From Octopus vulgaris (Eukaryota): DNA of 64,000 nt. The stretch covers positions 111,848,001-111,912,000 of the forward strand of contig OX597823.1 in the NCBI GenBank assembly GCA_951406725.2, written 5' to 3'. This document shows, in pieces, positions 1-59,684 of the stretch. The notes under the pieces are model-generated. The model saw only the letters and a program-made list of their open reading frames with translations, was not told where the DNA came from and searched no databases. How positions within the stretch are numbered: position 1 is the first letter of the stretch; every line of letters starts with the position of its first letter. The translations under genes were made by a program, and so were the position numbers.

Positions 1-443
1 AAAAAAATATTATACAAAATAAAAGTAAAATAATATATTTTCTATTTTCCATCATTGTAATTGCTTTCTTGGTTTGTGTTATTATTAGTAGAAGGAAAAT
101 ATATATTCCTTTTCTTGCAGGAATAACCATTTTGAAAACAGAATTATTATTATCATTATTTATTTGTTTGTATTTATTATTTTTTTTTTTAGACTATCCT
201 GATAATGAATTGAGAAATGTGTGAATCATATATTAGTTATTACTGAAGTTCTTTGTTAATTACTACTTTTTAGTCAAAAAATTCTTAATGTCAAAATATA
301 TGATATTAAATCCATAATGTCAAAGAAAAGATATGCTCTGAAATATATATATATATATATAGTGTGTGTTTGTGTGTGTGTGAGCCTAGCGATTGTTCAG
401 AGCTCTACATCAAAAAATGCGGACTCACCTTTATAAGACAGAG

Positions 444-487
<44 letters not shown>

Positions 488-750
488 TAGATAGATAGAT
501 AGACAGCATTCTACAAGTGATTGAGGTTACATTTCTTGAAATTATATTGTGCTTAGTTAGCCTGACACCCACATCTCTTACAACCATCCATAGAACTTAG
601 AGTTATTTAAGCTCATTTATTCATATGATCATTATAAAACTATATGTATATCGATCTATCTGTCCATCCATCCATCCATCCATCCATCCATCTGTCTATC
701 TGTCTGTCCATCCATCTGTCTGTCTGCCTGTTTGTCTATCTGTCTGTATG

Positions 751-823
<73 letters not shown>

Positions 824-857
824 TCCTATATATGAGTTTATATATATATATGAAGTA

Positions 858-1417
858 GAGGCACAATGGCCCAGTGGTTAGGGCAGCGGACTCACGGCTG
901 TAGGATCGTGGTTTCGCTTCCCAGACTAGGCTTTGTGAGTGTTTATTGAGTGAAAACAGCTAAATCTCCCCGTGGCTCTGGCAGGGGGTGGTTTGCGAAC
1001 CCTGCTACTCTTTAATCCCAACTTCCTCTCACTCTTTCTTTCTGTTTCTGCTGTACCTGTATTTCAAAGGGCCAGCCTTGGCACACTCTGTATCATGCTG
1101 AATCTCTCCAAGAACTACATTAAGGGTACACGTGTCTGTGGAGTGCTCAGCCACTTACACGTTAATTTCACGAGCAGGCTGTTCCCTTGATCGGATCAAC
1201 CGGAACCCTCGTCGTCGTAACCGATGGAGTGCTTCCTTCCTTAATTTCAAAGGGCCAGCCTTGGCATACTCTGTATCATGCTGAATCTCTCCAAGAACTA
1301 CATTAAGGGTACACGTGTCTGTGGAGTGCTCAGCCAGTTGCACGTTAATTTCACAAGCAGGATGCTCTGTTGATTGGATTAACTGGAACCCTCGTCTTCG
1401 TAACCGATGGAGTGCCA
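858..1417 (+). mobile_element. tRNA-derived SINE (family C) with tandemly duplicated ~175-bp 3' segment
   Basis: Head GGCACAATGGCCCAGTGGTTAGGGCAGCGGACTC..GGTTTCGCTTCCC has A/B-box-like motifs and recurs at 19689, 56617 (-) and 61940; segment 1061-1233 is repeated at 1244-1417. Confidence 0.8.
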
Positions 1418-1434
1418 ACAGTATATATATGTGT

Positions 1435-1672
1435 TGGCACATAAAAAGCACCAACTGATCGTCGCTGCTGCCAGCCTCCCCTGGCACCTGTGCTGGTGGC
1501 ATGTAAAAAGTACCCACTACACTCACGGAGTGGTTGGCCTTAGGAAGGGCATCCAGCTGTAGAAACACTGCCAGATTAGACTGGAGTCTGGTGCAGCCTC
1601 ATAGCTTCCCAAACCCCGGTCGAACCATCCAACCCATGCTAGCAGGGAAAACGGACGATAAATGATGATGAT
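1435..1672 (+). mobile_element. Short retroposon family B, 3' part ending in (GAT)n
   Basis: Shares CACTACACTCACGGAGTGGTTGGC..AGGAAGGGCATCCAGCTGTAGAAAC..AACCCATGCTAGCA with copies at 3072-3765, 28010-28480 and 42515-43090. Confidence 0.75.
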
Positions 1673-1957
1673 ATATATATATATATGCATCGTCATCATT
1701 TAACATCTGCTTTCCATGCTGGCATGGGTTGGAAGGTCTAACACAAAGCTTTAACATTGAACTATGCTAACCACATCAAACTATGGCAAATTTGCCAAAA
1801 GTTTCACACTCATCTAGATTTAGGAACCGAAACAGCAACACATCAGAAAATAAATCCAAAAATATGAAATAGGAACAATTAATTTTAATGGAAATATGCA
1901 AAAACAGTTAGTAAATCTGATCCTTTTATATTTACTTTGGGTGTGTGTTTGCATGTA

Positions 1958-1968
<11 letters not shown>

Positions 1969-1990
<22 letters not shown>

Positions 1991-2448
1991 GGGAAGGGGG
2001 TGAGAGTGAGAGGGGGAAGGGGAGAGTGTGAGAGTGAGAGAGAGTGAGAGAGAGAAAGAATGGGAGTGAGAGAGGGAGAGACAGCAAGAAAGATAAGGAG
2101 AGAGAAAGAAGGGGGAGAGAGTGAGAGAGAGAGATAGCGAGAGAGAGAGATAGAAAGAGAGACAAGAAATGAGAGAGCTAGAGAGAGAGAGAGATGGCGA
2201 GAGAGAGAGATAGCAAGAGAGACAAGGAGAGAGAGTGAGAGTGCTAGAGAGAGAGAGATAGTGAGAGAGAGAGATAGTGAGAGAGAGAGATAGTGAGAGA
2301 GAGAGATAGTGAGAGAGAGAGATAGCAAGAGAGACAGGGAGAGAGAGAGAGAGCATTAGAGAGAAAGAGATAGTGAGAGAGAGAGAGATAGCATGAGAGA
2401 CAGGGAGAGAAAGAGAGAGACAGACAGAGACAGAAAGAGACAGAGAGA
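1969..2448. repeat. Degenerate (GA)n polypurine tract
   Basis: About 480 bp of GA repeats with GATAGT/GACA interruptions; explains the Ser/Leu ORFs. Confidence 0.95.
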
Positions 2449-2912
2449 AAAGTTCATGATCATTGACCATTTATGTCCTGTTTTCAGTTTTTCTGTGACC
2501 CTTAAAAAGAAGGTTATCCTCACTCTTGTTACCCAACCCAAATACATGAAATGATATGAACTCTGCTAAAGGCACTTAAGGTTTCAGGGATTTAGATTAA
2601 ACAGGATGATGGATTAAGTCTACCAGCCAAGTAAGCTACACCATCATTTCAATTCAGACCACAAAGAATCAGAAAAAAACCTGTCTGGTATTTTGTCAAA
2701 CTGTAATATTTCTGATCTGGGCTGGTATTATATTTTACCAAATCTAAAAAGATGAAAAACCAAGAAGACCATTGCTGGATTTGAACACATAATACCCCAA
2801 GTCAAACTATTTTACTCCATATTATTTTGTCGTATACTCTAATGACAATTAATTCATTGTCTTCTGACCCTCTTTCTCCCTGCTCCTACTAAATATTTAT
2901 AATATATAGATG

Positions 2913-3734
2913 TAGGAGTGGCTGTGTGGTAAGTAACTTGCTTACGAACCACATGGTTCCGAGTTCAGTCCCACTACATGGCACCTTGGGCAAGTCTCTT
3001 CTATTATAGCCTCGGATCGACCAAAGCCTTGTGAGTTCATTTGGTAGACGTAAATTGAAAGAAGCCCGTCGCACTATCCGACTCGTGGCCGATGCCAGCG
3101 CCGCCTCCACTGGCTTCTGTGCCGGTGGCACGTAAAATACACCAATCTGACCGTACGACAGGCACCCATGCCAACCCCATTGCTTGCGAAGACATGTTGG
3201 GGCAAGCGAAATCGAATTGAACCAGCCAGGTTCCCTGGTCTGGTGGTACGTAAAAAGCACTATCCGACTCGTGGCCGATGCCAGCGCCGCCTCCACTGGC
3301 TTCCGTGCCAGTGGCACGTAAAATACACCAATCTGACCGTACAACAGGCACCCATGCCAACCCCCTTGCTTGCGAAGACATGTTGGGGCAAGCGAAATCG
3401 AAATCGAATTGAACCAGCCAGGATCCCTGGTCTGGTGGTACGTAAAAAGCACCATCCGACTCGTGGCCGATGCCAGCACCGCCTCGTCTGGCTTCTGTGC
3501 CGGTGGCACATAAAATACACCAATCCGACCGTGGCCGTTGCCAGCCTCGCCTGGCACCTGTGCAGGTGGCACGTAAAAAGCACCCACTACACTCACGGAG
3601 TGGTTGGCGTTAGGAAGGGCATCCAGCTGTAGAAACACTGCCAGATAAGACTGGAGCCTGGTGCAGCCTTCTGGCTTCCCAGATCCCCGGTCGAACCATC
3701 CAACCCATGCTAGCATGGAGAACGGACGTTAAAC

Positions 3735-3807
<73 letters not shown>

Positions 3808-3965
3808 GTGTGTATATGTTTGTAAGTCTGTGTTTGTCCCCCCAACATTGCTTGACAACTGATGCTGGTGTGTTTATGTACCCGTAACTTAGTGGTTCAG
3901 CAATAGAGATTAACAGAATAAGTATTAGGCTTACAAAGAATAAGTCCAGGGGTCGATTTGCTCAA
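2913..3965 (+). mobile_element. tRNA-derived SINE family A, split at its internal microsatellite by a family-B element
   Basis: Head 2913-3071 (TGGCTGTGTGG A-box-like, GAGTTCAGTCC B-box-like, CCTTGGGCAAG); body resumes after (GAT)n(TA)n at ~3800. Confidence 0.85.
3072..3765 (+). mobile_element. Family B element with internal ~190-bp tandem units
   Basis: CACTATCCGACTCGTGGCCGATGCCAGCGCCGCC recurs at ~3072, ~3258 and ~3450; standard B tail then (GAT)n. Confidence 0.8.
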
Positions 3966-4234
3966 ATTAGCCCCTACTCTTTGTGGTTATTTATAAAAGA
4001 AAATATCCTGATGAGTCTCTCAGCAAAATACTTGCAACACATTTGAACTTAAAACTTGTAAACAAAGTGTCCAATACCTCATTCACTCATCTTATTTCTT
4101 CTAGTCTTCATGTATCAATTTTACTATTATGCAAATTTGATTTATGTACTAATTGTACTATTATACCAACTTCATTGATATAACAATTTCTCATTTGTAT
4201 TTGGTTTGCAAGATTCTTGAAACATATTGTGTTG

Positions 4235-4678
4235 TGTCTCACAATGGCCATTATGTTAGTAATAAACATGTGCACTAGGTCTATTTCACTTCTTTTATTG
4301 TTGTTAATCAATTGGTTAACCATTTAACCACTTAATCAACTGGTTGATTAAATGTTCAATCAATCAATCACTTAGCTCGCTTTGTCAAAATCGCTTCATT
4401 GTCATTCATGACCTATAAATGACAAGTTCTCTCTACTCCAGATATGCTTCAGGTCTGTCTGGAGTTAAGGGGGCATATGATTGATGAGGTCATGAATGGC
4501 AATGAAAGGATTTTGTCAAAATTATTGATTGACTGATTGATTGATCGAATATTTAATCAATCTATTAGTTAACCAGTTAAGTAGTTAACCAGTCGACTAA
4601 TAATAACAATAATAAAAGATGTGAAATAAAACCAGTGCATGCATATATTCCTTACATAATGACCCTCACAAGAGACAA
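4235..4678. repeat. Diverged ~445-bp fold-back (MITE-like) inverted repeat
   Basis: Left arm e.g. TTCATTGTCATTCATGACCT..ACTCCAGA pairs with right arm TCTGGAGT..AGGTCATGAATGGCAATGAA; outer TGTCTC/GAGACA. Confidence 0.75.
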
Positions 4679-5932
4679 ATAAAAAGAAAAAAAAGCCGTT
4701 TACTGATATTCCTATTTCACCATTCCTTTACTAATTTGGCTGTTTTAGTAATTCTTCAGGTATTCCAAGTTAATTACCATACCACTTTCACTGTTGCATT
4801 AATTTTCACATTATATCATTTTGGCTGTTACTCCAACTCAGGGCTAAACAATTACAGCAACAGTACTGGCTTTTGAGCAATATTCTTTTACATTTATATT
4901 TTTTCTTCAGCAAGAAATTTGATCTGCAGTTGTCATATTCCATCAATAATCTCATCAATAATTAAGCTTGTATATTGCTATTTATTTCTTTATTCTTCAC
5001 TTTTTTATCCTCACAGAAACCATTAAAATATTTTGTCATATTCTCCTGTCCTACTCTTCCATGATTATTGGCATATTGGTTTAGACAAAATATAACTTGA
5101 GAAATTATTTTCTGAAGATACCTTTAAGTAAATTTTGGAAACAAGAAGACATCTCTATTCTTCACAAGTTACCCCTTTATCTCTTATATTAGATTCTACT
5201 TTTTCTTGAGAATTGTCAATATTTTCTTAAATAATTACATATACCAGAGTGCTTCATAGAATAAAGTAGATAATCATTAGTAAATGTTTTGCAAGGAGAA
5301 GTTTTCTGTCTTGTTACAAAATTATTTATTGTTTAAGATTTAGAGTTTTATTTGTTTTGTAAGTGACTGTTTGGTATAAGACTGTTGAAGTTGAAACAAT
5401 GATGAGTTAAATAAGCAACTTAAAAGACACACACGCAGACATACACTCATACACACACACACACATTTGTGTAAGAACACATATTTGTGTGTTTGTGTGT
5501 GTGTGTGTATCTATCTATAGACTGATATATAGATAGATAGATGCTTGTCAATATATATATCAGTGCATGTGTGTATGTGTATGTGTGCATATGAAGGTGT
5601 GATTGTATGCAGGTGTATATCTGTATGTAACAAATTATTTGTTAGGTTCCTTTGAATCAAGATTATTTTAATTAATCAGTGCACCAATTAACCAGGGTTG
5701 AGAATAGCAAATTCATGTGTGTATCATATACAGACACTTATGCATATATCAATGCATATATGGACATTGCCTAACACATACATTTACATATGCATGGACA
5801 GATCGATATACACATTTATATGAGTATACATGTATACAAAATTATATACATGCATGCTGGCATGCAGTTTCATGATCCACTTTGAGTTCCAGACCCAATG
5901 TAGGAAAGGTTCTAGGTGTGGTGCTTACATAA

Positions 5933-6360
5933 GTGCAGGAGTGGCTGTGTGGTAAGTAGCTTGCTTACCAACTACATGGTTTCGGGTTCAGTCCCACTGC
6001 ATGGCACCTTGGGCAAGTGTCTTCTACTATAGCCTCAGGCCAACCAAAGACTTGTGGGTGGATTTGGTAGACGGAAACTGAAAGAAGCCCATCGTATACA
6101 TGTGTATATATATATATATATATATGTACGTGTGGTATATGTTTTTGTGTCTGTGGTTGGCCCCCTGCCCAACTGATGCTGGTGTGTTTACGTCCCCGTA
6201 ATTTAGTGGTTTGGTAATAAGAGACCAATAGAATAAGTACTAGGCTTACAAAGAATAAGTCCTGGGGTCAATTTGTTCAACTAAAGTCTTAATGGCAGTG
6301 CTCCAACATGGTCACAGTCAAATGACTGACACAAGTAAAAGAATAAAAAAATAAAAGAAT
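5933..6360 (+). mobile_element. SINE family A, full length
   Basis: tRNA-like head, internal (TA)n/(TG)n, tail ..CAGTCAAATGACTGAC/AACAAGT(AAAAGAAT)n. Confidence 0.9.
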
Positions 6361-6651
6361 ATATAAGAAAAGTGATCACGAAGGAATAAATGATCATATC
6401 ATTAACTTCATTAGCTTACAGCTGTTTCCATAATTACATGCAGTTGACTCATTGCTGAGTGCCCGAGTAACACTTTCTAGTTCCATCTGAACTCAACTAA
6501 CATTTCATTGAGAAGCATATATATATTGAGTTCTACACCAGGCTATTAGCATTGCAATGCCTAAGGGAAGTTGTAAGCAAGTATCCTTTATTACCAGTCT
6601 TTCATGGAAACTTGTTCAGTTGGTGGAAATATTAACTTACTTGTTAATAAG

Positions 6652-6882
6652 AAGGCGGTGAGCTGGCAGAAGCGTTAGCATGCTGGGCGAAATTCTTAGC
6701 AGTATTTTGTCTGCCACTACATTCTGAGTTCAAATTCCACAAAGGTCGACTTTGCCTTTCATCCTTTTAGGGTGGATTAAGTACCAGTTACACAGTGGAG
6801 TCGATATAATTGACTTAATCCGTTTGTCTCTCCTTGTTTGTCCTCTCTGTGTGTAGCCCCTTGTGGGCAGTAAAGAAATAAG
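6652..6882 (+). mobile_element. SINE family D
   Basis: AAGGCGGTGAGCTGGCAGAA..GAGTTCAAATTCC..GGTCGACTTTGCCTTTCATCC; related copies at 7613-8005, 18268-18465 and 51113-51345 (-). Confidence 0.8.
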
Positions 6883-7025
6883 GAAAAATTTGACTTACTT
6901 GGAAACTGGCAAGTCCTGGCAAGTGGAAGTACATCTGCTTATACAAGATCTCCCTCAATAAACTCTATGTGACCCATGCAAGCATGGAAAAGTGGGCATA
7001 AAATTGCTGCTGCTGATGCCATTAA

Positions 7026-7246
7026 CCCTTTCATTACTGAATTTATTATGAGATTTTTTGTGTTTCTTTCAATTACTTTAAATATAACAAAGAATTCAGT
7101 AAAATAACTTAGTTATCATTAAGCTAGTGTTAGGAACATAAATTTTGACCAAGGTTTGGTGGAAGATTTTAATTCAAAACTTATGAAAACAAGACATTCG
7201 TACTACAGAGCCAGAGCTGGTTTCAGCCGGGTTGGTAGTGAAAGGG
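7026..7246. mobile_element. 221-bp piggyBac-type MITE
   Basis: TTAA on both sides (7022-7025, 7247-7250); TIRs CCCTTTCATTAC / GTAGTGAAAGGG; two more copies at 29768-30231. Confidence 0.85.
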
Positions 7247-7612
7247 TTAATGGTCATAATGACGATGATAGAGAATCATCTAAAAAGCAACACTAAAAAA
7301 CTATTCCATAAATGGTACTAAATTTAAAAAGTCAAAATCAAAAGAATTTTATCACAAACAATTTCATAAACAAAAGGTAAAAAAGATAGTCTGGAACTGC
7401 AAATAAGAAAATCTAACAGAAACACACACACACACACACAAACACAAACACACAAACACACACACACACACACAAAAATAAAATGGAAAAAGTAGTTATA
7501 TTTATATCTTTGCGTTATGTTTACCTCAAATTTTTATCATCATTGTTATCATTACTAACATCATCACCATCAACATTCTCTTCATAAATATCATTATTAT
7601 TGTCGGCATTAA

Positions 7613-8005
7613 GAAGGCAGTGAGCTGGAAGAATTGGTAGCATGCTTGTCTGTCTTTTATGTTCTGAGTTCAAATTCCACTAAGGTCGACTTCGCCTGTC
7701 ATTCTTTCAGGGTCAAAAAATTAAGTCCCAGGTCTGTACTGGGGTTGATCTAATCAACTGCCCTCCCCACTCCTCAAAACTTTTGAGCCTTGTGTCTAGA
7801 GTAGAAATGAATCATTAGCACACTGCATGAAATGCTTACTAATATTTCGCCTGTCACTACGTCCTGAGTTCAAATTCAGTTGAGGTCGACTTTGTCTTTC
7901 ATCCTTTAGGGTTCGATAAATTAGGTACCAGTTGAGTTCTGGGGTCGATGTAATTGACTTGACCCCTCTCCCCAAATTTCAGGCCTTGAACCTATATCAG
8001 AAATG
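7613..8005 (+). mobile_element. Two tandem diverged family D SINEs
   Basis: Two GAGTTCAAATTC..AGGTCGACTT motifs at ~7666 and ~7866. Confidence 0.7.
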
Positions 8006-8227
8006 ATCATTATTGGCATTAATATCATAATCTGTATTATCATAAGCATCGTCACAATCACCATACAACTACAGGCATTTGTCTTGCCATATTTTGGTTT
8101 CTGTCTCACTCTCTTTCTCTCTCACACACATGCACACACACTTTGGCCTCTGTCTCTATCTTTCTGTTACATATAGGTATATATATGCATACAACCATAC
8201 CTTCATACATATATGCATACATACATA

Positions 8228-9516
8228 CAGGGTGGGGAAGCAAAATTTACAATGAACTTTAAGTAGTCTTTTCTCAGCAGGCACTAAGTCAATTGTTTTG
8301 AAACCTAGCATATATTGATGTCATACTCATACCTAACACTATTATCCTTACCTTTTCAGAAACTTTTGCCCATATGAGTAATCAGGAAAGCAAAAGTTAA
8401 AGAGGGTGTGATTTGCTGAATGCACTCGTCACACCAAAGGAGATTTCAAGAATAGTTGGAGTGTCCATAAAGACTGTTTATAATGTAAAGAATAGAATGA
8501 CTATGAGCAAAACTATTAGAGGAAGTCTGGAAGTGGAGGAATCAACAAAAAACATACCATAGCTTTTATTAAAGCTCTCAAATCCAAAATCCTAAAGGAT
8601 CCAACCAAATTCATGAGAAAAATGGCAATTGAAGTTGAGGTAGACAACAAGACCATTAGAAATGCAGTAAAATATGATTTGAGGTTAAAATCTTACACAA
8701 GAACACCAAAACACTTGTTGACAACAGCTATGAAGGAAAAGAGATTGGAAAGGTGCAAGAAAATTATTACATGGTTCAAGAAAATGTCCTCCATTGTAAC
8801 AATCCTTTCAGATGAAAAGATCTTCACTGTCGATGCTGTTCTGAACTGCAGAAATGACAGATTTATCGCAAAATCAACAGCTGAGGTTAAGGGGACATTC
8901 AAAACAAAACATCCTGCTCAAGTTATGGCTTTTGGTGTTGTGGCTTCCGATAGAAAGAAAATGCCTATAAAATTCTACAAAGCTGATGAAAAGATCAATG
9001 TTAATACTTACTACAAGACTCTGAGATACCAGGTATTGCCATGGCTTAAAGCAAACTACCCAGATGGTAATTATGTATGGACACAGGATGGTGCTCCAGC
9101 CCACACAGCTAGAAAAATACAAGATTTCTGCAAATCCAACTTAAGCAATTTTTTGGAATCATGTTTATGGCCACCTTCTAGCCCAGATCTAAACCCTCTG
9201 GATTATGCTATTTGGGGCGTTTTAGAACATGCTACCAATAGAACATCACACAGCAATGTCGACTCTCTTAAAGATACTATTAAAGAAGAATGGGAGAAGT
9301 TGTCTCCCGAATATTTGAGGAACACTTGTGCAAGTTTCAGGAAGCGTGTGAAGGCAGTTATTGAGAAAGAAGGAGGACACATAGAATAAAAATATTTTCT
9401 ATTATGTAAATTTTCTTGTGGCAAATAAATTCTCATGATTTTCAATAAACTAATTGGTCATACAATGACTTTCAATCCCTGCCTCAAAATATTGTAAATT
9501 TCGCTTCCCCACCCTG
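8228..9516 (+). mobile_element. Full-length 1289-bp Tc1/mariner transposon, DD37D (maT) family
   Basis: 26-bp TIRs CAGGGTGGGGAAGC(A/G)AAATTTACAAT with 1 mismatch; TA on both flanks; transposase inside. Confidence 0.95.
8374..9389 (+). pseudogene. DD37D transposase; catalytic part (8613-9389) open, N-terminus broken by a TAA (8398-8400) and a frameshift near 8519
   Basis: Motifs ILSDEKIF, WTQDGAPAH, WPPSSPDLNPLDY with 37 aa between the 2nd and 3rd D; upstream HTH-like EISRIVGVSIKTVYNV in a different frame. Confidence 0.9.
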
Positions 9517-9589
9517 TACATACACACATACATATTGACAAGCATCTACATATGCATATATAGATATATATGCATATATATATATATAT

Positions 9590-9994
9590 CTTTTTCTCTT
9601 TTTACTTGTTTCAGTCATTTTGACTGTAGCCATGCTGGAGCACCACCTTTAATCAAGCAACTCGACCCTGGGACTTATTCTTTGTAAGCCCAGTACTTAT
9701 TCTATCAGTCTCTTTTGCTGAACCGCTAAGTGACGGGGACATAAACACACCAGCATCAGTTGTCAGGCAATGCTAGGGGGACAAACACAGACACACAAAC
9801 ATACATGCACATACATATATATACATATATACGACGGGCTTCTTTCAGTTTCCGTCTACCAAATCCACTCACAAGGCTTTGATCGGCTCGAGGCTATAGT
9901 AGAAGACACTTGCCCAAGGCGCCACGCAGTGGGACTGAACCCGGAACCATGTGGTTGGTAAACAAGCTACTTACCACACAGCCACTCCTGAGCC
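9590..9994 (-). mobile_element. SINE family A
   Basis: Reverse complement of the family A consensus, full length. Confidence 0.9.
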
Positions 9995-10023
9995 TATATA
10001 TATATAATAATAATATATAATAG

Positions 10024-10755
10024 TAATAATAAGGGTAAAATTAATTAATTAATTAATAATTAATAATTCCACCAAGTAGTGATTTGGTATGTAAAAGACC
10101 ATTATCGGTTAATTTAAACAATATTTGTTATAATAAGGGTTAGGCAAAGGAATTTGCTTCACCTCACACCGAACTTTAGAAATAGCAGCCAAAAGAAAAA
10201 AACAAGCTATTTCTTCTCCTGTAAGAAACAACTCCCAAACAATATATGCTCAAAAACGTATCATGTAGGCAGAGAAAGAAAACAACGAATTTCACCCGGA
10301 CGCATTTCGAAATTAGATAGATATGAAAAATGCAAGAATCGCACTTCCATTCTGATCCTTTTTCTCATCAGCACAGTATTTCCATATATTTTAAATTTGG
10401 TAGCACTGAAAAAACCTGAACATACCCATCTGATTCCAGTAACATCAGACAAATTATATCCGTGAACAGTACTGCTGAATTCAAAACATGCGAATGAGGT
10501 CCCGCAACTCTCCCTCGTCCACCCACGTGTGTTGTTAAGCAAAAATTCTACAGAAGAAAACTGTAGTTTACTGTCAGGGAGGGAATTGTATTATCAATAA
10601 TAATAATAAGAGTAAAATTAATTAATTAATTAATAATTAATAATTCCACCAAGTAGTGATTCGGTATGTAAAAGACATTCTTTTGGCTGCTATTTCTAAA
10701 GTTCGGTGTGTGGTGAAGCAAATCCTTTTGCCTAACCCTTATTATAACAAATATT
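10024..10755 (-). mobile_element. Non-coding Penelope-like/retrozyme-like element: 577-bp monomer with 76-bp terminal direct repeat plus 78-bp inverted tail
   Basis: 10024-10099 = 10601-10676 (2 mismatches); 10120-10197 is inverted at 10678-10755; hammerhead core inside. Confidence 0.65.
10293..10377 (-). ncRNA. Type I hammerhead ribozyme-like motif
   Basis: Minus strand: CTGATGA-GAAA[loop]TTTC-GAAA-TGCG-TC; complete core, stem II GAAA/TTTC, stem III ATGCGT (near-palindrome); stem I weak. Confidence 0.65.
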
Positions 10756-10759
10756 ATAT

Positions 10760-10917
10760 AGGAGTGGCTGGGTGGTAAGTAGCTTGCTAACCAACCACAT
10801 GGTTCCGGGTTCAGTCCCACTGTGTGGCATCTTGGACAAGTGTCTTCTGCTATAGCCCCGGGCCGACCAATGCCTTGTGAGTAGATTTGGTAGACGGAAA
10901 CTGAAAGAAGCTTGTCG

Positions 10918-10952
<35 letters not shown>

Positions 10953-11175
10953 GTGTTTGTGTGTCTGTGTTTGTCCCCCTAGCATTGCCTGACAACCGAT
11001 GCTGGTGTGTTTACGTCCCTGTCACTTAGCGGTTCGGCAAAAGAGACCGATAGAATAAGTACTGGGCTTACAAAGAATAAGTTCCGGGGTCAATTTGCTC
11101 AACTAAAGGCGGTGCTCCAGCATGGCCGCAGTCAAATGACTGAAACAAGTAAAAGAGTAAAAGAGTAAAAAGAGT
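10760..11175 (+). mobile_element. SINE family A
   Basis: Full length with (AAAAGAGT)n tail. Confidence 0.9.
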
Positions 11176-11581
11176 ATATATGAAAGGTTAGAAAATGCAA
11201 TTTTAAAGATGCTTATTCACTTGACTGGTTTCACTTTTTTAGAAAAAGATTGTCAGAAGTGAAATGTAAAGCTTTGTATAAGCTTTGTCGTGTCAAGTAC
11301 TGGTTGTCACAAAAGTATTAAAATACAGATATACATTCTGTGGTAATAATAAGAAAATGTTAAATGTTTTTAAGAAAATGAAAACGTTTTTAACATTTTC
11401 TTATTATTATCAAAGAATGCATATATGTATTTTAATACCTTTGTGACAACCTGTACTTAACACAACAAAGCTTCTGCAAAGCTTTACATTTTACTTTTGA
11501 CAATCTTTTTCTGAAACAGTGAAACCGGTCAAGTGAATAAACATCTTTAAAATTGCATTTTCAAACCATTCTGTCATATAT
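11176..11581. repeat. Long palindrome (~190-bp arms, ~24-nt spacer) with a hammerhead-like motif in each arm
   Basis: Arms 11176-11364 / 11389-11581; motif TTCACTT-CTGACAA-tcttttt..aaaaagt-GAAA-CC(A/G)G-TC-AAGTGAA at 11216-11263 (-) and ~11490-11537 (+). Confidence 0.8.
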
Positions 11582-14438: not shown

Positions 14439-14994
14439 CAGGGTGGACCGAAATGATCTGACACATTTTGGAGGCTTAATAAAAGCACAAAATAAGAAAT
14501 AATGAAAAGAAAAATTTTATTTTCTGAATACACATATAATGTCATTTTATTTCATTAAGTTTTGAGAATTAATTCAGCTAAATGCTTCCCGTCATTGTCA
14601 ACACACCGTTGGAGACGTTCGTGGAAGTTATCGATAACTCTATGGATCATTTCTTCTGGAATGGTGAAATGTGATTTCTTGTTGTGGGGATATTTAAAAT
14701 GAAAAGTATTCAGTCATCACCCTCGATCTATTGATGAATTAAAACGTGCAATTTGTGTAGAAATAGCAACCATTCCAGAAGAAATGATCCAAAGAGTTAT
14801 CGATAACTTTCACGAACGTCTCCAACAGTGTGTTGACAATGATGGGAAGCATTTAGCTGATCTAATTTTTAAAGCTTAATGAAATAAAATGGCATTATAC
14901 GTACATTCAGAAAATAAAATTTTTCTTTTCATTATTTCATTTTTTGTTCTTTTATTAAGCCTCCAAATGTGTCAGATCATTTTGGTCCACTCTG
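14439..14994. mobile_element. 556-bp fold-back non-autonomous Tc1/mariner derivative (~227-bp arms)
   Basis: TA flanks; arms 14439-14665 / 14769-14994; + strand encodes a transposase C-terminus CDFLLWGYLK*KVF..IDELKRAI..ERLQQCVDNDGKH. Confidence 0.85.
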
Positions 14995-16971: not shown

Positions 16972-17760
16972 TTTTTTTATGTCTCCTTTTCATTACAACT
17001 TTATTTCAGCTGCCATAGTACCGGGCATCCTCTGGAGGCCAAGAGTATCAAGGGCACTTTTGTTTTGATATGCATGCTAAAATTATCACCACTTTTATTT
17101 CATTTTAGATGGAGAGTGCTTTCCGTAGTAAATGGGCTGTACCCATCAAGGTTATCTTTTATATTTCACGGAGATGGGAGTTACCAAAGAGTTGCTTGAT
17201 ATACTTCTCAGCTCCCTTCTTTATCATTCCCAATGCACCAATTACCACTGGTGTTATCGTAGTACTAAGCTTCTACATTTTTGTAATTTCAATTTGCAGA
17301 TCTTTATAATGAGAAAGTTCTTCGTATTCTTTTCTTGAGACATTTTGATCTTGTGGGACAGACATATCTATTAACGACAAGTTCCTCTCTTGTAGTCTTT
17401 GATCACAATGTCTGGTCAAATGGAGTCAATTTTTCTGTCTTTTTGTATTAAGAAGTTCCAAAGGATGGTGATGCCCTCATCATTTACTACATCCTCTGGA
17501 GGGTGCCTGTACCATTTATCATGGGATTTAATTTCGTAGTATTTACAAGCATTCCTAGTCTGTCATGTTTTATGAAGTACTCCTTTTCAGTGAGGACTGG
17601 GCAGCCAGAAACAACATGATCAATTGTCTCTGAAAATTTTTCACAAATTCTGCACAAGGGATCAGACCCATCTTTAAGGACATTTGCATGGTAGTTTCTG
17701 GTAAGTAAGCTTTGATCTGCTGCAATAACAAAATCTTCTGTTTTTCCTTTCAGACTTGTC
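16972..17760 (-). mobile_element. 3' end of an R4/Dong-clade non-LTR retrotransposon (CCHC plus restriction-like endonuclease), degenerate
   Basis: Minus strand: LKGKTEDFVIAADQSLLTRNY..CRICEKFSETIDHVVSGCP..KHDR; ILWNFLIQKDRKID..PDIVIKD..LIDMSVP..YKDLQIEI..PVVIGALG; ends in (TAA)n. Confidence 0.85.
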
Positions 17761-17764
17761 CCTT

Positions 17765-33923: not shown

Positions 33924-34180
33924 TTAAATAGGAACAAAGTCTTTAGGTCATCAAAAACAATTAAAATTTTGATCAAAGTTTGAAACATGATTTCCAAAAT
34001 GTTTTGATTTGTTCTATCACCATATCTGCACAATAACATAAGCAACAACACTAGCAAGAGTGAGGCCTCTGTATAGTCACTCAGTCTGCTATAAATAGCA
34101 ACCAAATCACACTCAAATCCCAATCAGCTGAAATGAAAATAATAGTAAGGACACCGTAAATACTAAAGTTCTAGATACTA

Positions 34181-59168: not shown

Positions 59169-59204
<36 letters not shown>

Positions 59205-59684
59205 TTATAATAAAGGGTTAATAGCAACAAGTTGCTCAAAACCACATACCGAAAATATTAGAAAAGCAGCCAAATAGATCACTATTTCTACTACTAGTTA
59301 AAAAGACTCCACAAACAAACAGAATTTGCAACACGTATATGGTAAAGAGAAATTTATTAATTTTATTAAATTAATTATATTTCACTCTTTTTGTATATAT
59401 ATATATAAGTTATTTAGAGATAGAAGTCCCCATGCAATTCATCAAATCCTAATATACATCACACCATATCATAGAATTTTATTTTAATACTTACAATTTC
59501 AGTTCCGAATTTCTCTTCTACACTTGTTTCATGAGGTGCATTTAACGTTCCTGGGACCCTCAGTCTTTTTCAGAAACATTATTTGAATCCCTGTGACACC
59601 GGAATTTTTATTCCATAATGTATATATATATATATATATATGTATATATCTGTGAAATAATATGTGACAATTATTTAATAGCCA

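What the first reader, a model, noticed from the sequence alone, without database searches (positions are those of the whole stretch)
10024..10755. 577-bp hammerhead-containing monomer with terminal redundancy and an inverted tail
Seen: a 76-bp direct repeat (10024-10099 / 10601-10676) brackets a non-coding body holding a complete CTGATGA..GAAA-TGCG-TC core on the minus strand. It is immediately followed by a 78-bp inverted copy (10678-10755) of 10120-10197. A diverged relative of that 78-bp segment lies at ~59205-59280. Inference: a monomer plus partial repeat is what reverse transcription around a circular or tandem RNA would leave, and the flipped terminal piece mirrors PLE insertion architecture. 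This is a candidate cephalopod retrozyme.
Basis: partly seen in the sequence, partly recalled or inferred. Interest (0 to 1): 0.8.

Follow-up and report, generated by a model that had tools for sequence, protein, structure and literature searches.

The report
Folded hammerhead repeat riding Penelope elements
A 577-base non-coding repeat in this animal genome carries a hammerhead ribozyme motif inside a long predicted RNA fold and bears the insertion marks of Penelope-like jumping genes, so it is likely a retrozyme-like passenger of those elements, although self-cutting and RNA circles are untested.

Summary
The direct repeat is 81 bp (10019-10099/10596-10676, 96%), the inverted copy 78 bp (96%), a complete type I hammerhead core lies on the minus strand (10371-10299), and the relative at 59198-59352 is real and about twice as long as reported. 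Contigs of three DNA runs show a dispersed family. Its majority letter makes helix III a perfect palindrome, and other copies show the same head-to-head inversions. This is the Penelope-like (PLE) signature: partial tandem, inverted 5' arm, tail on one end, TA-rich target. No RT or GIY-YIG remnant was found. New here: the minus-strand RNA is predicted to fold into a ~370-nt rod. The family's majority letters stabilise it by 17 kcal/mol, while random changes weaken it (0 of 250 as good). In that fold the hammerhead's helix I strand is blocked, as in viroids and plant retrozymes. Best reading (0.6): a short non-autonomous PLE-mobilised, retrozyme-like element; this copy is decaying. Not shown: tandem arrays with two hammerheads, cleavage, circles, the partner PLE. 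A truncated tail of a long PLE remains possible (0.25). 'Cephalopod' is recalled, not tested.

The parts
10019..10595 (-). 577-nt non-coding unit (RNA sense = minus strand), 34% GC
   Evidence: period of the direct repeat; covered along 10076-10597 by contigs of three DNA runs; GC
10596..10676 (-). 5'-truncated upstream partial copy (last 81 nt of the unit): partial tandem / pseudo-LTR
   Evidence: 96% to 10019-10099
10678..10755 (+). inverted, 5'-truncated arm joined head-to-head; copy of 10120-10197, lacks the tail
   Evidence: 96%; both arms share three letters (10127, 10167, 10195) that differ from the family majority
10299..10371 (-). type I hammerhead: CUGAUGA 10371-10365, stem II 10364-10309, GAAA 10308-10305, palindromic helix III 10305-10300, predicted cut between 10299 and 10298
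   Evidence: sequence, descriptor test, folding, majority letters at 10304 and 10367
10372..10385 (-). weak local 5' strand of helix I (active conformer, inferred)
   Evidence: constrained folds; pair probability <=0.005 when unconstrained
10491..10589 (-). 5' arm of the long-range duplex; 10505-10491 is the predicted blocker of the helix I 3' strand
   Evidence: blocker pairs p 0.62-0.83; five of six sampled duplex pairs p>=0.92
10228..10298 (-). 3' arm of the long-range duplex, starting at the predicted cleavage site
   Evidence: 54 pairs in the window copy, 60 with majority letters
10386..10489 (-). long hairpin between blocker and core
   Evidence: sampled pairs p 0.75-1.0
10120..10197 (-). 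terminal segment shared with a much more abundant related family; ends in terminus 1 (CCUAACCCUUAUUAUAA), inferred RT start site 1
   Evidence: summed depth about 4e5 on its inverted copy; loose-end consensus of the same terminus followed by TA-rich DNA; inverted arms of other copies begin near 10128
10019..10119 (-). 100-nt tail ending in terminus 2 with the same ACCCUUAUUAU 11-mer; inferred RT start site 2
   Evidence: present on the direct arm only; tail joined to the terminal segment in other copies (records 1, 2, 9, 17)
9995..10018 (.). TA/TAA microsatellite, inferred target site
   Evidence: sequence
59198..59352 (-). diverged 5'-truncated relative of 10120-10277, same terminus next to a TA run
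9573..9994 (-). flanking SINE-like repeat copy (not part of the element)
   Evidence: one of about 20 copies in the window; 88.7-93.4% to other copies
10760..11182 (+). flanking SINE-like repeat copy (not part of the element)
   Evidence: 90.9% to the left copy but up to 94.9% to others, so not a duplication of the left copy

Best explanation
This is one decaying copy of a dispersed 577-nt non-coding repeat family that carries a type I hammerhead motif and is likely a non-autonomous, retrozyme-like passenger of Penelope-like retroelements (PLEs). Shown: partial tandem, head-to-head inverted arm, tail on one end only, TA-rich flanks, a family in several sequencing runs that keeps the core, and no coding remnant in the searches run. 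Predicted: the minus-strand RNA folds into a ~370-nt rod (10589-10228) in which 10505-10491 pairs with the helix I 3' strand, so the monomer is switched off; a local strand swap (8-11 kcal/mol) plus a dimeric helix III would switch it on. Inferred: a more-than-unit-length RNA (tandem transcript or ligated circle) was copied by a PLE RT/GIY-YIG protein acting in trans. That protein would nick both strands of a TA microsatellite. One cDNA would start at terminus 2 and run 577+81 nt, straight through the cleavage site; the other would start at terminus 1 and run 78 nt; their truncated ends would be joined head-to-head. The hammerhead would cut multimers into monomers only in tandem transcripts or with protein help, as reported for PLE hammerheads.
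For: Architecture matches the PLE pattern as described in passages of Craig et al. and PMC3846280; two internal RT start sites bracketing a tail and ATT-rich nicking of both strands were shown for Anolis Poseidon (PMC11167929). 13 joints listed: 3 join opposite strands (sides 62-78 nt); 6 more run into the inverted arm and read as head-to-head inversions (sides 22-36 nt); 2 end at the SINE start; 2 are internal deletions. Majority letter at 10304 (2668 of 2777, 1266 of 1266 and 1914 of 1914 summed depth in three DNA runs) gives the perfect palindrome ACGCGU (self-duplex -7.5 against -3.9 kcal/mol). Of the 40 differences shown, the only one in the CUGAUGA/GAAA/UC core is the free position N7 (10367). 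Fold: circular MFE z -4.7 (window copy), -8.3 (30 majority letters), plus strand -0.9. Majority letters lower the MFE by 17.4 kcal/mol; the same kinds of change at random places raise it by 8.4+/-6.0, 0 of 250 as good. Of the 30 letters, 9 restore a pair, 5 turn G-U into Watson-Crick, 5 the reverse, 11 are unpaired. The duplex reaches to within 6-20 nt of the unit's 5' boundary. No Pfam hit in 6 of 6 frames read with X at stops; no relative in two searches for longer proteins; one spurious hit among 1.84 billion representatives for one frame. Direct and inverted arms have the same divergence (3/81, 3/78), as expected of one event.
Against: The tail-to-head junction (10596/10595) was not seen in another copy, because read laying masks 10585-10647. 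Only one hammerhead is present and no array was found. The majority letters do not favour the active fold: stem II closing pairs fall from p 0.73 to 0.13 because an alternative 8-bp hairpin forms, 10358 breaks a stem II pair, and local helix I is weak and bulged. No two-sided compensatory change was seen (0 of 30). The majority letters come from 40 of about 80 listed differences, with indels left out. Rfam does not detect the motif. In the control set of 10 random window stretches, two reached z -2.7 and -3.5 and one -18.3 (it contains an inverted-repeat element), so the window copy's z alone is not decisive. No partner PLE was identified. Only 1 of 6 frames was searched against the full representative library.
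Confidence: 0.6

Rival explanations
1. The 577 nt are the 5'-truncated 3' end (pseudo-LTR plus tail) of a long autonomous PLE. The upstream 81 nt came from a template jump or a second insertion into its own end, so the 577-nt period belongs to this locus only.
For: PLE insertions are mostly 5'-truncated; earlier scan notes in other genomes often ended in this reading (unchecked). Junction not verifiable. PLE UTRs can be non-coding, so the lack of an ORF in 224 nt is weak evidence.
Against: The long duplex stabilised by family letters ends close to the 5' boundary. 1- and 2-nt indels are common among copies at 10384-10556. No protein remnant was found. In the described partial tandems the downstream copy is the full-length one. 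Depth does not fall steadily towards 10595 (rough).
Confidence: 0.25
2. The family is PLE-mobilised, but the hammerhead is vestigial or serves only as a structure for protein recognition. The RNA is linear and SINE-like and never cleaves or circularises.
For: The fold favoured by family letters is the inactive one. PAc hammerhead cleavage is not needed for insertion in vitro. Eight of nine Xenopus retrozyme dimers did not cleave. This copy spans the cleavage site uncut.
Against: The family keeps a CpG-rich perfect palindrome in helix III and varies at N7, which suggests selection on the catalytic core.
Confidence: 0.1
3. The hammerhead core is a chance motif in an ordinary non-autonomous repeat, or the repeats are a local duplication or assembly artefact.
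For: The descriptor was written after seeing the motif and allowed a 70-nt stem II; no Rfam hit.
Against: 1 of 5000 unit shuffles and 0 in 60 window shuffles match; the family majority improves the palindrome; the family is present in 4 of 4 runs laid, with independent inversion joints.
Confidence: 0.05

Closest known systems
Animal non-LTR retrozymes (Cervera & de la Pena 2020, PMC7229834, parts 2-4 of 6 read; Li, Clavereau & Pollet 2026, 10.64898/2026.07.22.740005, parts 1-3 of 5 read)
   Same: Non-coding, low-GC unit with a type I hammerhead whose short helix III has a palindromic loop; self-paired predicted fold; PLEs proposed as mobilisers; 577 nt lies inside the 51-972 bp range of Li et al.; dispersed monomers are described there.
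   Different: Longer than the 150-450 bp of Cervera & de la Pena; 1.14 units with one hammerhead, no array seen; stem II is a 56-nt rod; the hammerhead is predicted blocked, whereas most metazoan retrozyme circles are predicted to leave it free (some mussel ones excepted). Cleavage and circles untested. No cephalopod case turned up in my searches; the 2020 supplement could not be read.
Pseudo-LTRs and insertions of EN+ Penelope-like elements (Craig et al. 2021, passages; PMC3846280, passages; Frangieh et al. 2024, PMC11167929, parts 1-2 of 4)
   Same: Partial tandem, adjacent inverted 5'-truncated arm, tail on one end, TA/ATT-rich target, hammerhead upstream of two AC-rich end points.
   Different: No RT/GIY-YIG ORF; tail 100 nt rather than 30-40; both ends share an 11-nt motif; hammerhead 180 nt from the first end point.
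Minimal hammerheads of metazoan PLEs (Cervera & de la Pena 2014, PMC4209133, parts 1-2 of 4 and passages of supplement file 2)
   Same: CUGANGA, G10.1-C11.1, GAAA, palindromic 15.2-16.2, long helix II, short helix I, dimer needed.
   Different: No extra unpaired nucleotide between A9 and G10.1; carries a 2-nt palindromic loop 3 like the canonical satellite and D. virilis forms; helix II far longer than 7-8 bp.
Plant LTR retrozymes and hammerhead viroids (as summarised in the discussion of PMC7229834)
   Same: Ribozyme blocked by a complementary sequence in the stable fold.
   Different: Type I rather than type III hammerhead; no LTRs; PLE-type rather than Gypsy-type ends.

Membership tests
Animal non-LTR retrozyme | Type I hammerhead core in the unit | tested here: met
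   (motif and family letters); not detected by Rfam
Animal non-LTR retrozyme | At least two consecutive units each with a hammerhead (Li et al. criterion for an active element) | tested here: not met
   1.14 units and one hammerhead at this locus; other loci could not be examined (no genome; junction masked)
Animal non-LTR retrozyme | No protein-coding capacity | tested here: met
   0 Pfam families in 6 of 6 frames; negative; only 1 of 6 frames searched against the full library
Animal non-LTR retrozyme | Monomer size (150-450 bp in 2020; 51-972 bp in 2026) | tested here: inconclusive
   577 nt: outside the first range, inside the second; that 577 is the family-wide period is not shown
Animal non-LTR retrozyme | Stable self-paired fold of the monomer circle | tested here: met
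   prediction only: z -4.7 / -8.3, strand-specific; family letters stabilise it
Animal non-LTR retrozyme | Self-cleavage in vitro | not testable with these tools
   needs transcription assays
Animal non-LTR retrozyme | Expressed as monomeric circular RNA | not testable with these tools
   only contigs were available
PLE-type insertion | Partial tandem with 5'-truncated upstream copy | tested here: met
PLE-type insertion | Adjacent inverted 5'-truncated arm, head-to-head | tested here: met
   3 clear and 6 weaker such joints among 13 in other copies
PLE-type insertion | Tail on one end only (30-40 bp) | tested here: met
   present on the direct arm, absent from the inverted arm, but 100 nt long
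PLE-type insertion | AT-rich / TA microsatellite target | tested here: met
   9995-10018 and 10756-10759; also beside 59198; a TSD cannot be resolved
Autonomous EN+ PLE | RT plus GIY-YIG ORF | tested here: not met
Non-autonomous derivative of a named PLE | Sequence homology to the pseudo-LTR of an autonomous PLE of the same genome | not testable with these tools
   no genome held; pattern scans found no relative (with 36, 63, 64)
PLE minimal hammerhead (min-HHR) | Unpaired nucleotide between A9 and G10.1 | tested here: not met
   offset 0; consensus CUGANGAH-G
PLE minimal hammerhead (min-HHR) | G10.1-C11.1 pair and palindromic 15.2-16.2 / loop 3 | tested here: met
PLE minimal hammerhead (min-HHR) | Helix I of 4-5 bp | tested here: inconclusive
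   2 pairs, a bulge, then 4 pairs (three of the six are G-U); outcompeted by the blocker
Plant LTR retrozyme | Type III hammerheads in two LTRs | tested here: not met
   type I topology; one hammerhead, outside the 81-bp repeat

The most novel reading that the evidence does not exclude
This family is a cephalopod retrozyme whose 577-nt RNA circulates as a viroid-like circle with a built-in off-switch: an upstream strand locks the hammerhead in the monomer, only tandem transcripts or the bound PLE protein unlock it, and two matching telomerase-template-like landing sites (CUAACCCU / ACCCUUAUUAU) let a PLE RT dimer copy it from both nicked strands. The same landing site would be shared by a superfamily of about ten thousand related ends in the genome.
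Probability: 0.25. Interest if true: 0.65.

Novelty: new variant of a known kind. Interest (0 to 1): 0.45.

Why it matters
Animal retrozymes are thought to hitch on Penelope-like elements, but that rests mainly on co-occurrence and pseudo-LTR phylogeny. This locus shows a short non-coding hammerhead unit with the full mechanical signature of PLE insertion, which ties the two together directly. The 2020 paper also leaves open how metazoan retrozyme circles avoid cutting themselves; here a predicted blocker strand, kept stable by the family's own letters, gives a concrete and easily tested answer for one family. It is a variant of known systems, not a new class, and this copy is probably dead.

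Tried and rejected
Rfam: 0 matches at gathering score in the window; 26 weak matches in 9500-11300, none a hammerhead. A first loose hammerhead pattern with a gap of at most 50 missed the site because stem II is 56 nt. Pattern scans for relatives: viral contigs 0 and 0, prokaryote genomes 0, metagenomes 25 loci of 47-59% GC with no likeness to the unit beyond the pattern and stem II ends that do not pair, rejected as chance. Protein remnant: a stretch that by eye recalled a GIY-YIG end (motif recalled) gave no Pfam hit and no longer relatives. The single hit (P0001) is an unnamed 67-residue tandem repeat with 25-bit pieces whose scores add up, rejected. Expression: no RNA holder listed; one run guessed to be RNA holds contigs of the family, which shows neither strand, level nor circularity. 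Sixteen small-share or no-share rows and the other unlaid runs were not used (4 of 24 runs laid). The flanking SINE-like copies as an inverted duplication made by this insertion: rejected, each is closer to other copies than to the other. L1-type twin priming on one RNA: the 20-nt gap between the two arms fits it, but in other copies the arms overlap (joints 10134/10257, 10256/10377), so it is not claimed. An intron removing 10490-10373 to bring the blocker next to the core: no splice signals at those ends. ARAGORN finds no tRNA in the window, so 'tRNA-derived SINE' is recalled only. A text search for the SINE's 5' motif found 0 papers. Earlier scan findings by sequence and by place: none.

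Full report
Observation. The direct repeat is 81 bp (10019-10099 / 10596-10676, 3 mismatches, period 577) and the inverted copy is 78 bp (10678-10755 of 10120-10197, 3 mismatches). The minus strand carries CUGAUGA (10371-10365), a 56-nt stem II closed by G-C and three A-U pairs, GAAA, UGCG and UC (10299). A descriptor written after seeing the motif finds only this site in the window, 1 of 5000 shuffles of the unit and none in 60 window shuffles. Stem II is the unconstrained MFE of its stretch (14 of 1000 shuffles as good). Rfam does not call it. The relative at 59198-59352 is real (score 136, shuffles at most 100) and covers about 160 nt, ending at the same terminus beside a TA run. Two copies of an abundant SINE-like repeat flank the element head-to-head. 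They are 90.9% alike but up to 93-95% like other copies, so they are independent insertions. That the host is an octopus is my recollection from this repeat; no call tested it (one search found nothing).

Family. No genome is held, so I laid contigs of 4 of the 24 listed runs: three DNA or probable DNA runs under two organism labels and one guessed RNA run. The unit is covered along 10076-10597 at summed depths of about 180-8400 against 24-60 for most single contigs, i.e. very roughly tens to a hundred copies (the tool warns that depth is no copy number). The terminal segment reaches about 4e5, so related families with the same end are about a hundredfold more abundant, and their loose-end consensus stops at the same AACCCU..AUUAUA terminus followed by TA-rich DNA. 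Of 13 joints, 3 join opposite strands with 62-78 nt on the short side, 6 run into the inverted arm and read as head-to-head inversions (22-36 nt sides, weaker), 2 end at the SINE start and 2 are internal deletions. Inverted arms of other copies begin near 10128 (terminus 1). A 1026-nt contig (record 17) is laid only over 10169-10071 and has no second piece, which fits leaving at the tail end into other DNA (terminus 2). The AT-rich stretches 9960-10070 and 10585-10647 are masked, so the tail-to-head junction could not be checked in other copies. At 10304 nearly all depth in all four runs reads the letter that makes helix III the perfect palindrome ACGCGU; this copy has lost it by a CpG transition. 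Among the 40 differences shown (40 more are hidden), the only one in the conserved core boxes is the free position N7.

RNA fold. The minus-strand 577-mer folds far better than its shuffles (z -4.7), the plus strand does not (z -0.9), and with 30 majority letters z is -8.3. Random window stretches reached -2.7 and -3.5 in 2 of 10 and -18.3 in one that holds an inverted-repeat element, so the stronger test is the direction of change: the majority letters lower the MFE by 17.4 kcal/mol, while the same kinds of change at random places raise it by 8.4+/-6.0 (0 of 250 as good). Nine restore a pair, five turn G-U into Watson-Crick, five the reverse, eleven are unpaired, none is two-sided, and four break a pair of the window copy's own fold. 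The fold is a duplex of 10589-10491 with 10298-10228 (54 pairs, 60 with majority letters), a hairpin 10489-10386, and the hammerhead between them; 27 of 106 pairs are G-U, which points to RNA rather than a DNA palindrome. In it the helix I 3' strand pairs with 10497-10491 (p 0.62-0.83) and the local helix I has p<=0.005; forcing the hammerhead shape costs 8.2-10.8 kcal/mol. Against my reading, the majority letters also favour an alternative 8-bp hairpin over stem II (closing pairs p 0.73 to 0.13). So what the family conserves most clearly is the off state plus the core letters.

No coding remnant. Pfam finds nothing in 6 of 6 frames. Two searches for longer proteins are empty. One frame against 1.84 billion representatives gives one spurious tandem-repeat hit. 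One- and two-base indels are common among copies.

Mechanism. Shown: the anatomy and the family. From the literature: PLE insertions are partial tandems with an adjacent inverted 5'-truncated copy and a tail on one end, often in TA microsatellites (Craig et al., passages; PMC3846280, passages). The Anolis Poseidon protein nicks both strands at ATT, starts reverse transcription at two internal AC-rich sites that bracket the tail, and its hammerhead cuts only with protein and is not needed for insertion (PMC11167929). Inferred here: a PLE protein in trans copied a more-than-unit RNA from terminus 2 for 577+81 nt and from terminus 1 for 78 nt on the other strand. Equal divergence of both arms and three shared non-majority letters fit one event from one source. 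The copy runs through the cleavage site, so the template was an uncleaved multimer or a religated circle, or RT jumped templates; the locus cannot tell these apart. Both termini share the 11-mer ACCCUUAUUAU, and terminus 1 reads CUAACCCU, like the complement of the TTAGGG telomere repeat (recalled). Reverse-complement telomeric stretches beside hammerheads are known from EN-minus PLEs; whether this likeness means anything is open.

Comparison. It works like an animal non-LTR retrozyme mobilised by PLEs (PMC7229834; Li et al. 2026), but it is not filed as a member: the two-hammerhead tandem criterion is not met at this locus, and cleavage and circles are untested. It differs in the 56-nt stem II, the 100-nt tail, and a blocked hammerhead, which the 2020 paper describes for viroids, plant retrozymes and some mussel retrozymes but not for most animal ones. 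Its hammerhead lacks the extra nucleotide of the PLE min-HHR consensus and has a palindromic loop 3. Searches for a cephalopod case listed none; a 2026 Octopus vulgaris repeat annotation lists recently active Penelope families and does not contain the words hammerhead or ribozyme (passages). The 2020 supplement, supplement file 1 of the 2014 paper, bioRxiv supplements and Repbase could not be seen and may hold such a family.

Verdict. Real, not an artefact; a new variant of a known kind. Best reading 0.6, truncated tail of a long PLE 0.25, vestigial hammerhead on a linear RNA 0.1, chance or artefact 0.05. Interest 0.45; the bold case (circular RNA with a conformational off-switch) has probability 0.25 and would merit 0.65.

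Noticed in passing
window 8520-9389 (+): Open 289-aa Tc1/mariner-type transposase frame (Pfam DDE_3 E 1.3e-7, weak HTH_Tnp_Tc3_2) just left of the flanking SINE-like copy.
   Followed up: partly
window 11182-11571: Inverted repeat with 183-nt arms, 90% complementary, 24-nt spacer, directly after the right SINE-like copy; MITE-like.
   Followed up: no
window 9573-9994 (-) and 10760-11182 (+): Two SINE-like copies sit head-to-head with only TA-rich DNA and the element between their 5' ends. Their divergence from other copies (5-12%) is somewhat larger than that between the element's arms (3.8%), so the element may have landed between them.
   Followed up: partly
window 10678-10755 / 10120-10197: The terminal segment matches a far more abundant family in sequencing runs (summed depth about 4e5 at 10685-10713, about 5.5e4 at 10714-10742): a shared end motif of many related elements.
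   Followed up: partly
window 10129-10144 (-): Terminus 1 reads CCUAACCCU, like the complement of the TTAGGG telomere repeat and a telomerase template (recalled); the abundant relatives end in AACCCUAA.
   Followed up: no
window 17487-17762 (-): Decayed non-LTR retrotransposon fragment (zf-RVT E 0.002, below cut-off) next to long CAT/AAT microsatellites.
   Followed up: partly
window 14560-14900: Stretch that looks palindromic by eye (output) and holds a 2-mismatch match to the element's TTGGCTGCTATTTCTA motif; probably an unrelated MITE-like repeat.
   Followed up: no
window 34090-34105 (-): 2-mismatch match to the same 16-nt motif in a different context, without the terminus; may belong to another repeat family sharing the motif.
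   Followed up: no
run X8 records 26 and 27 (10298-10353): Two contigs match only the 3' half of the hammerhead and stop at or next to the predicted cleavage site, continuing with other sequence: possibly related families with the same ribozyme and different bodies.
   Followed up: no
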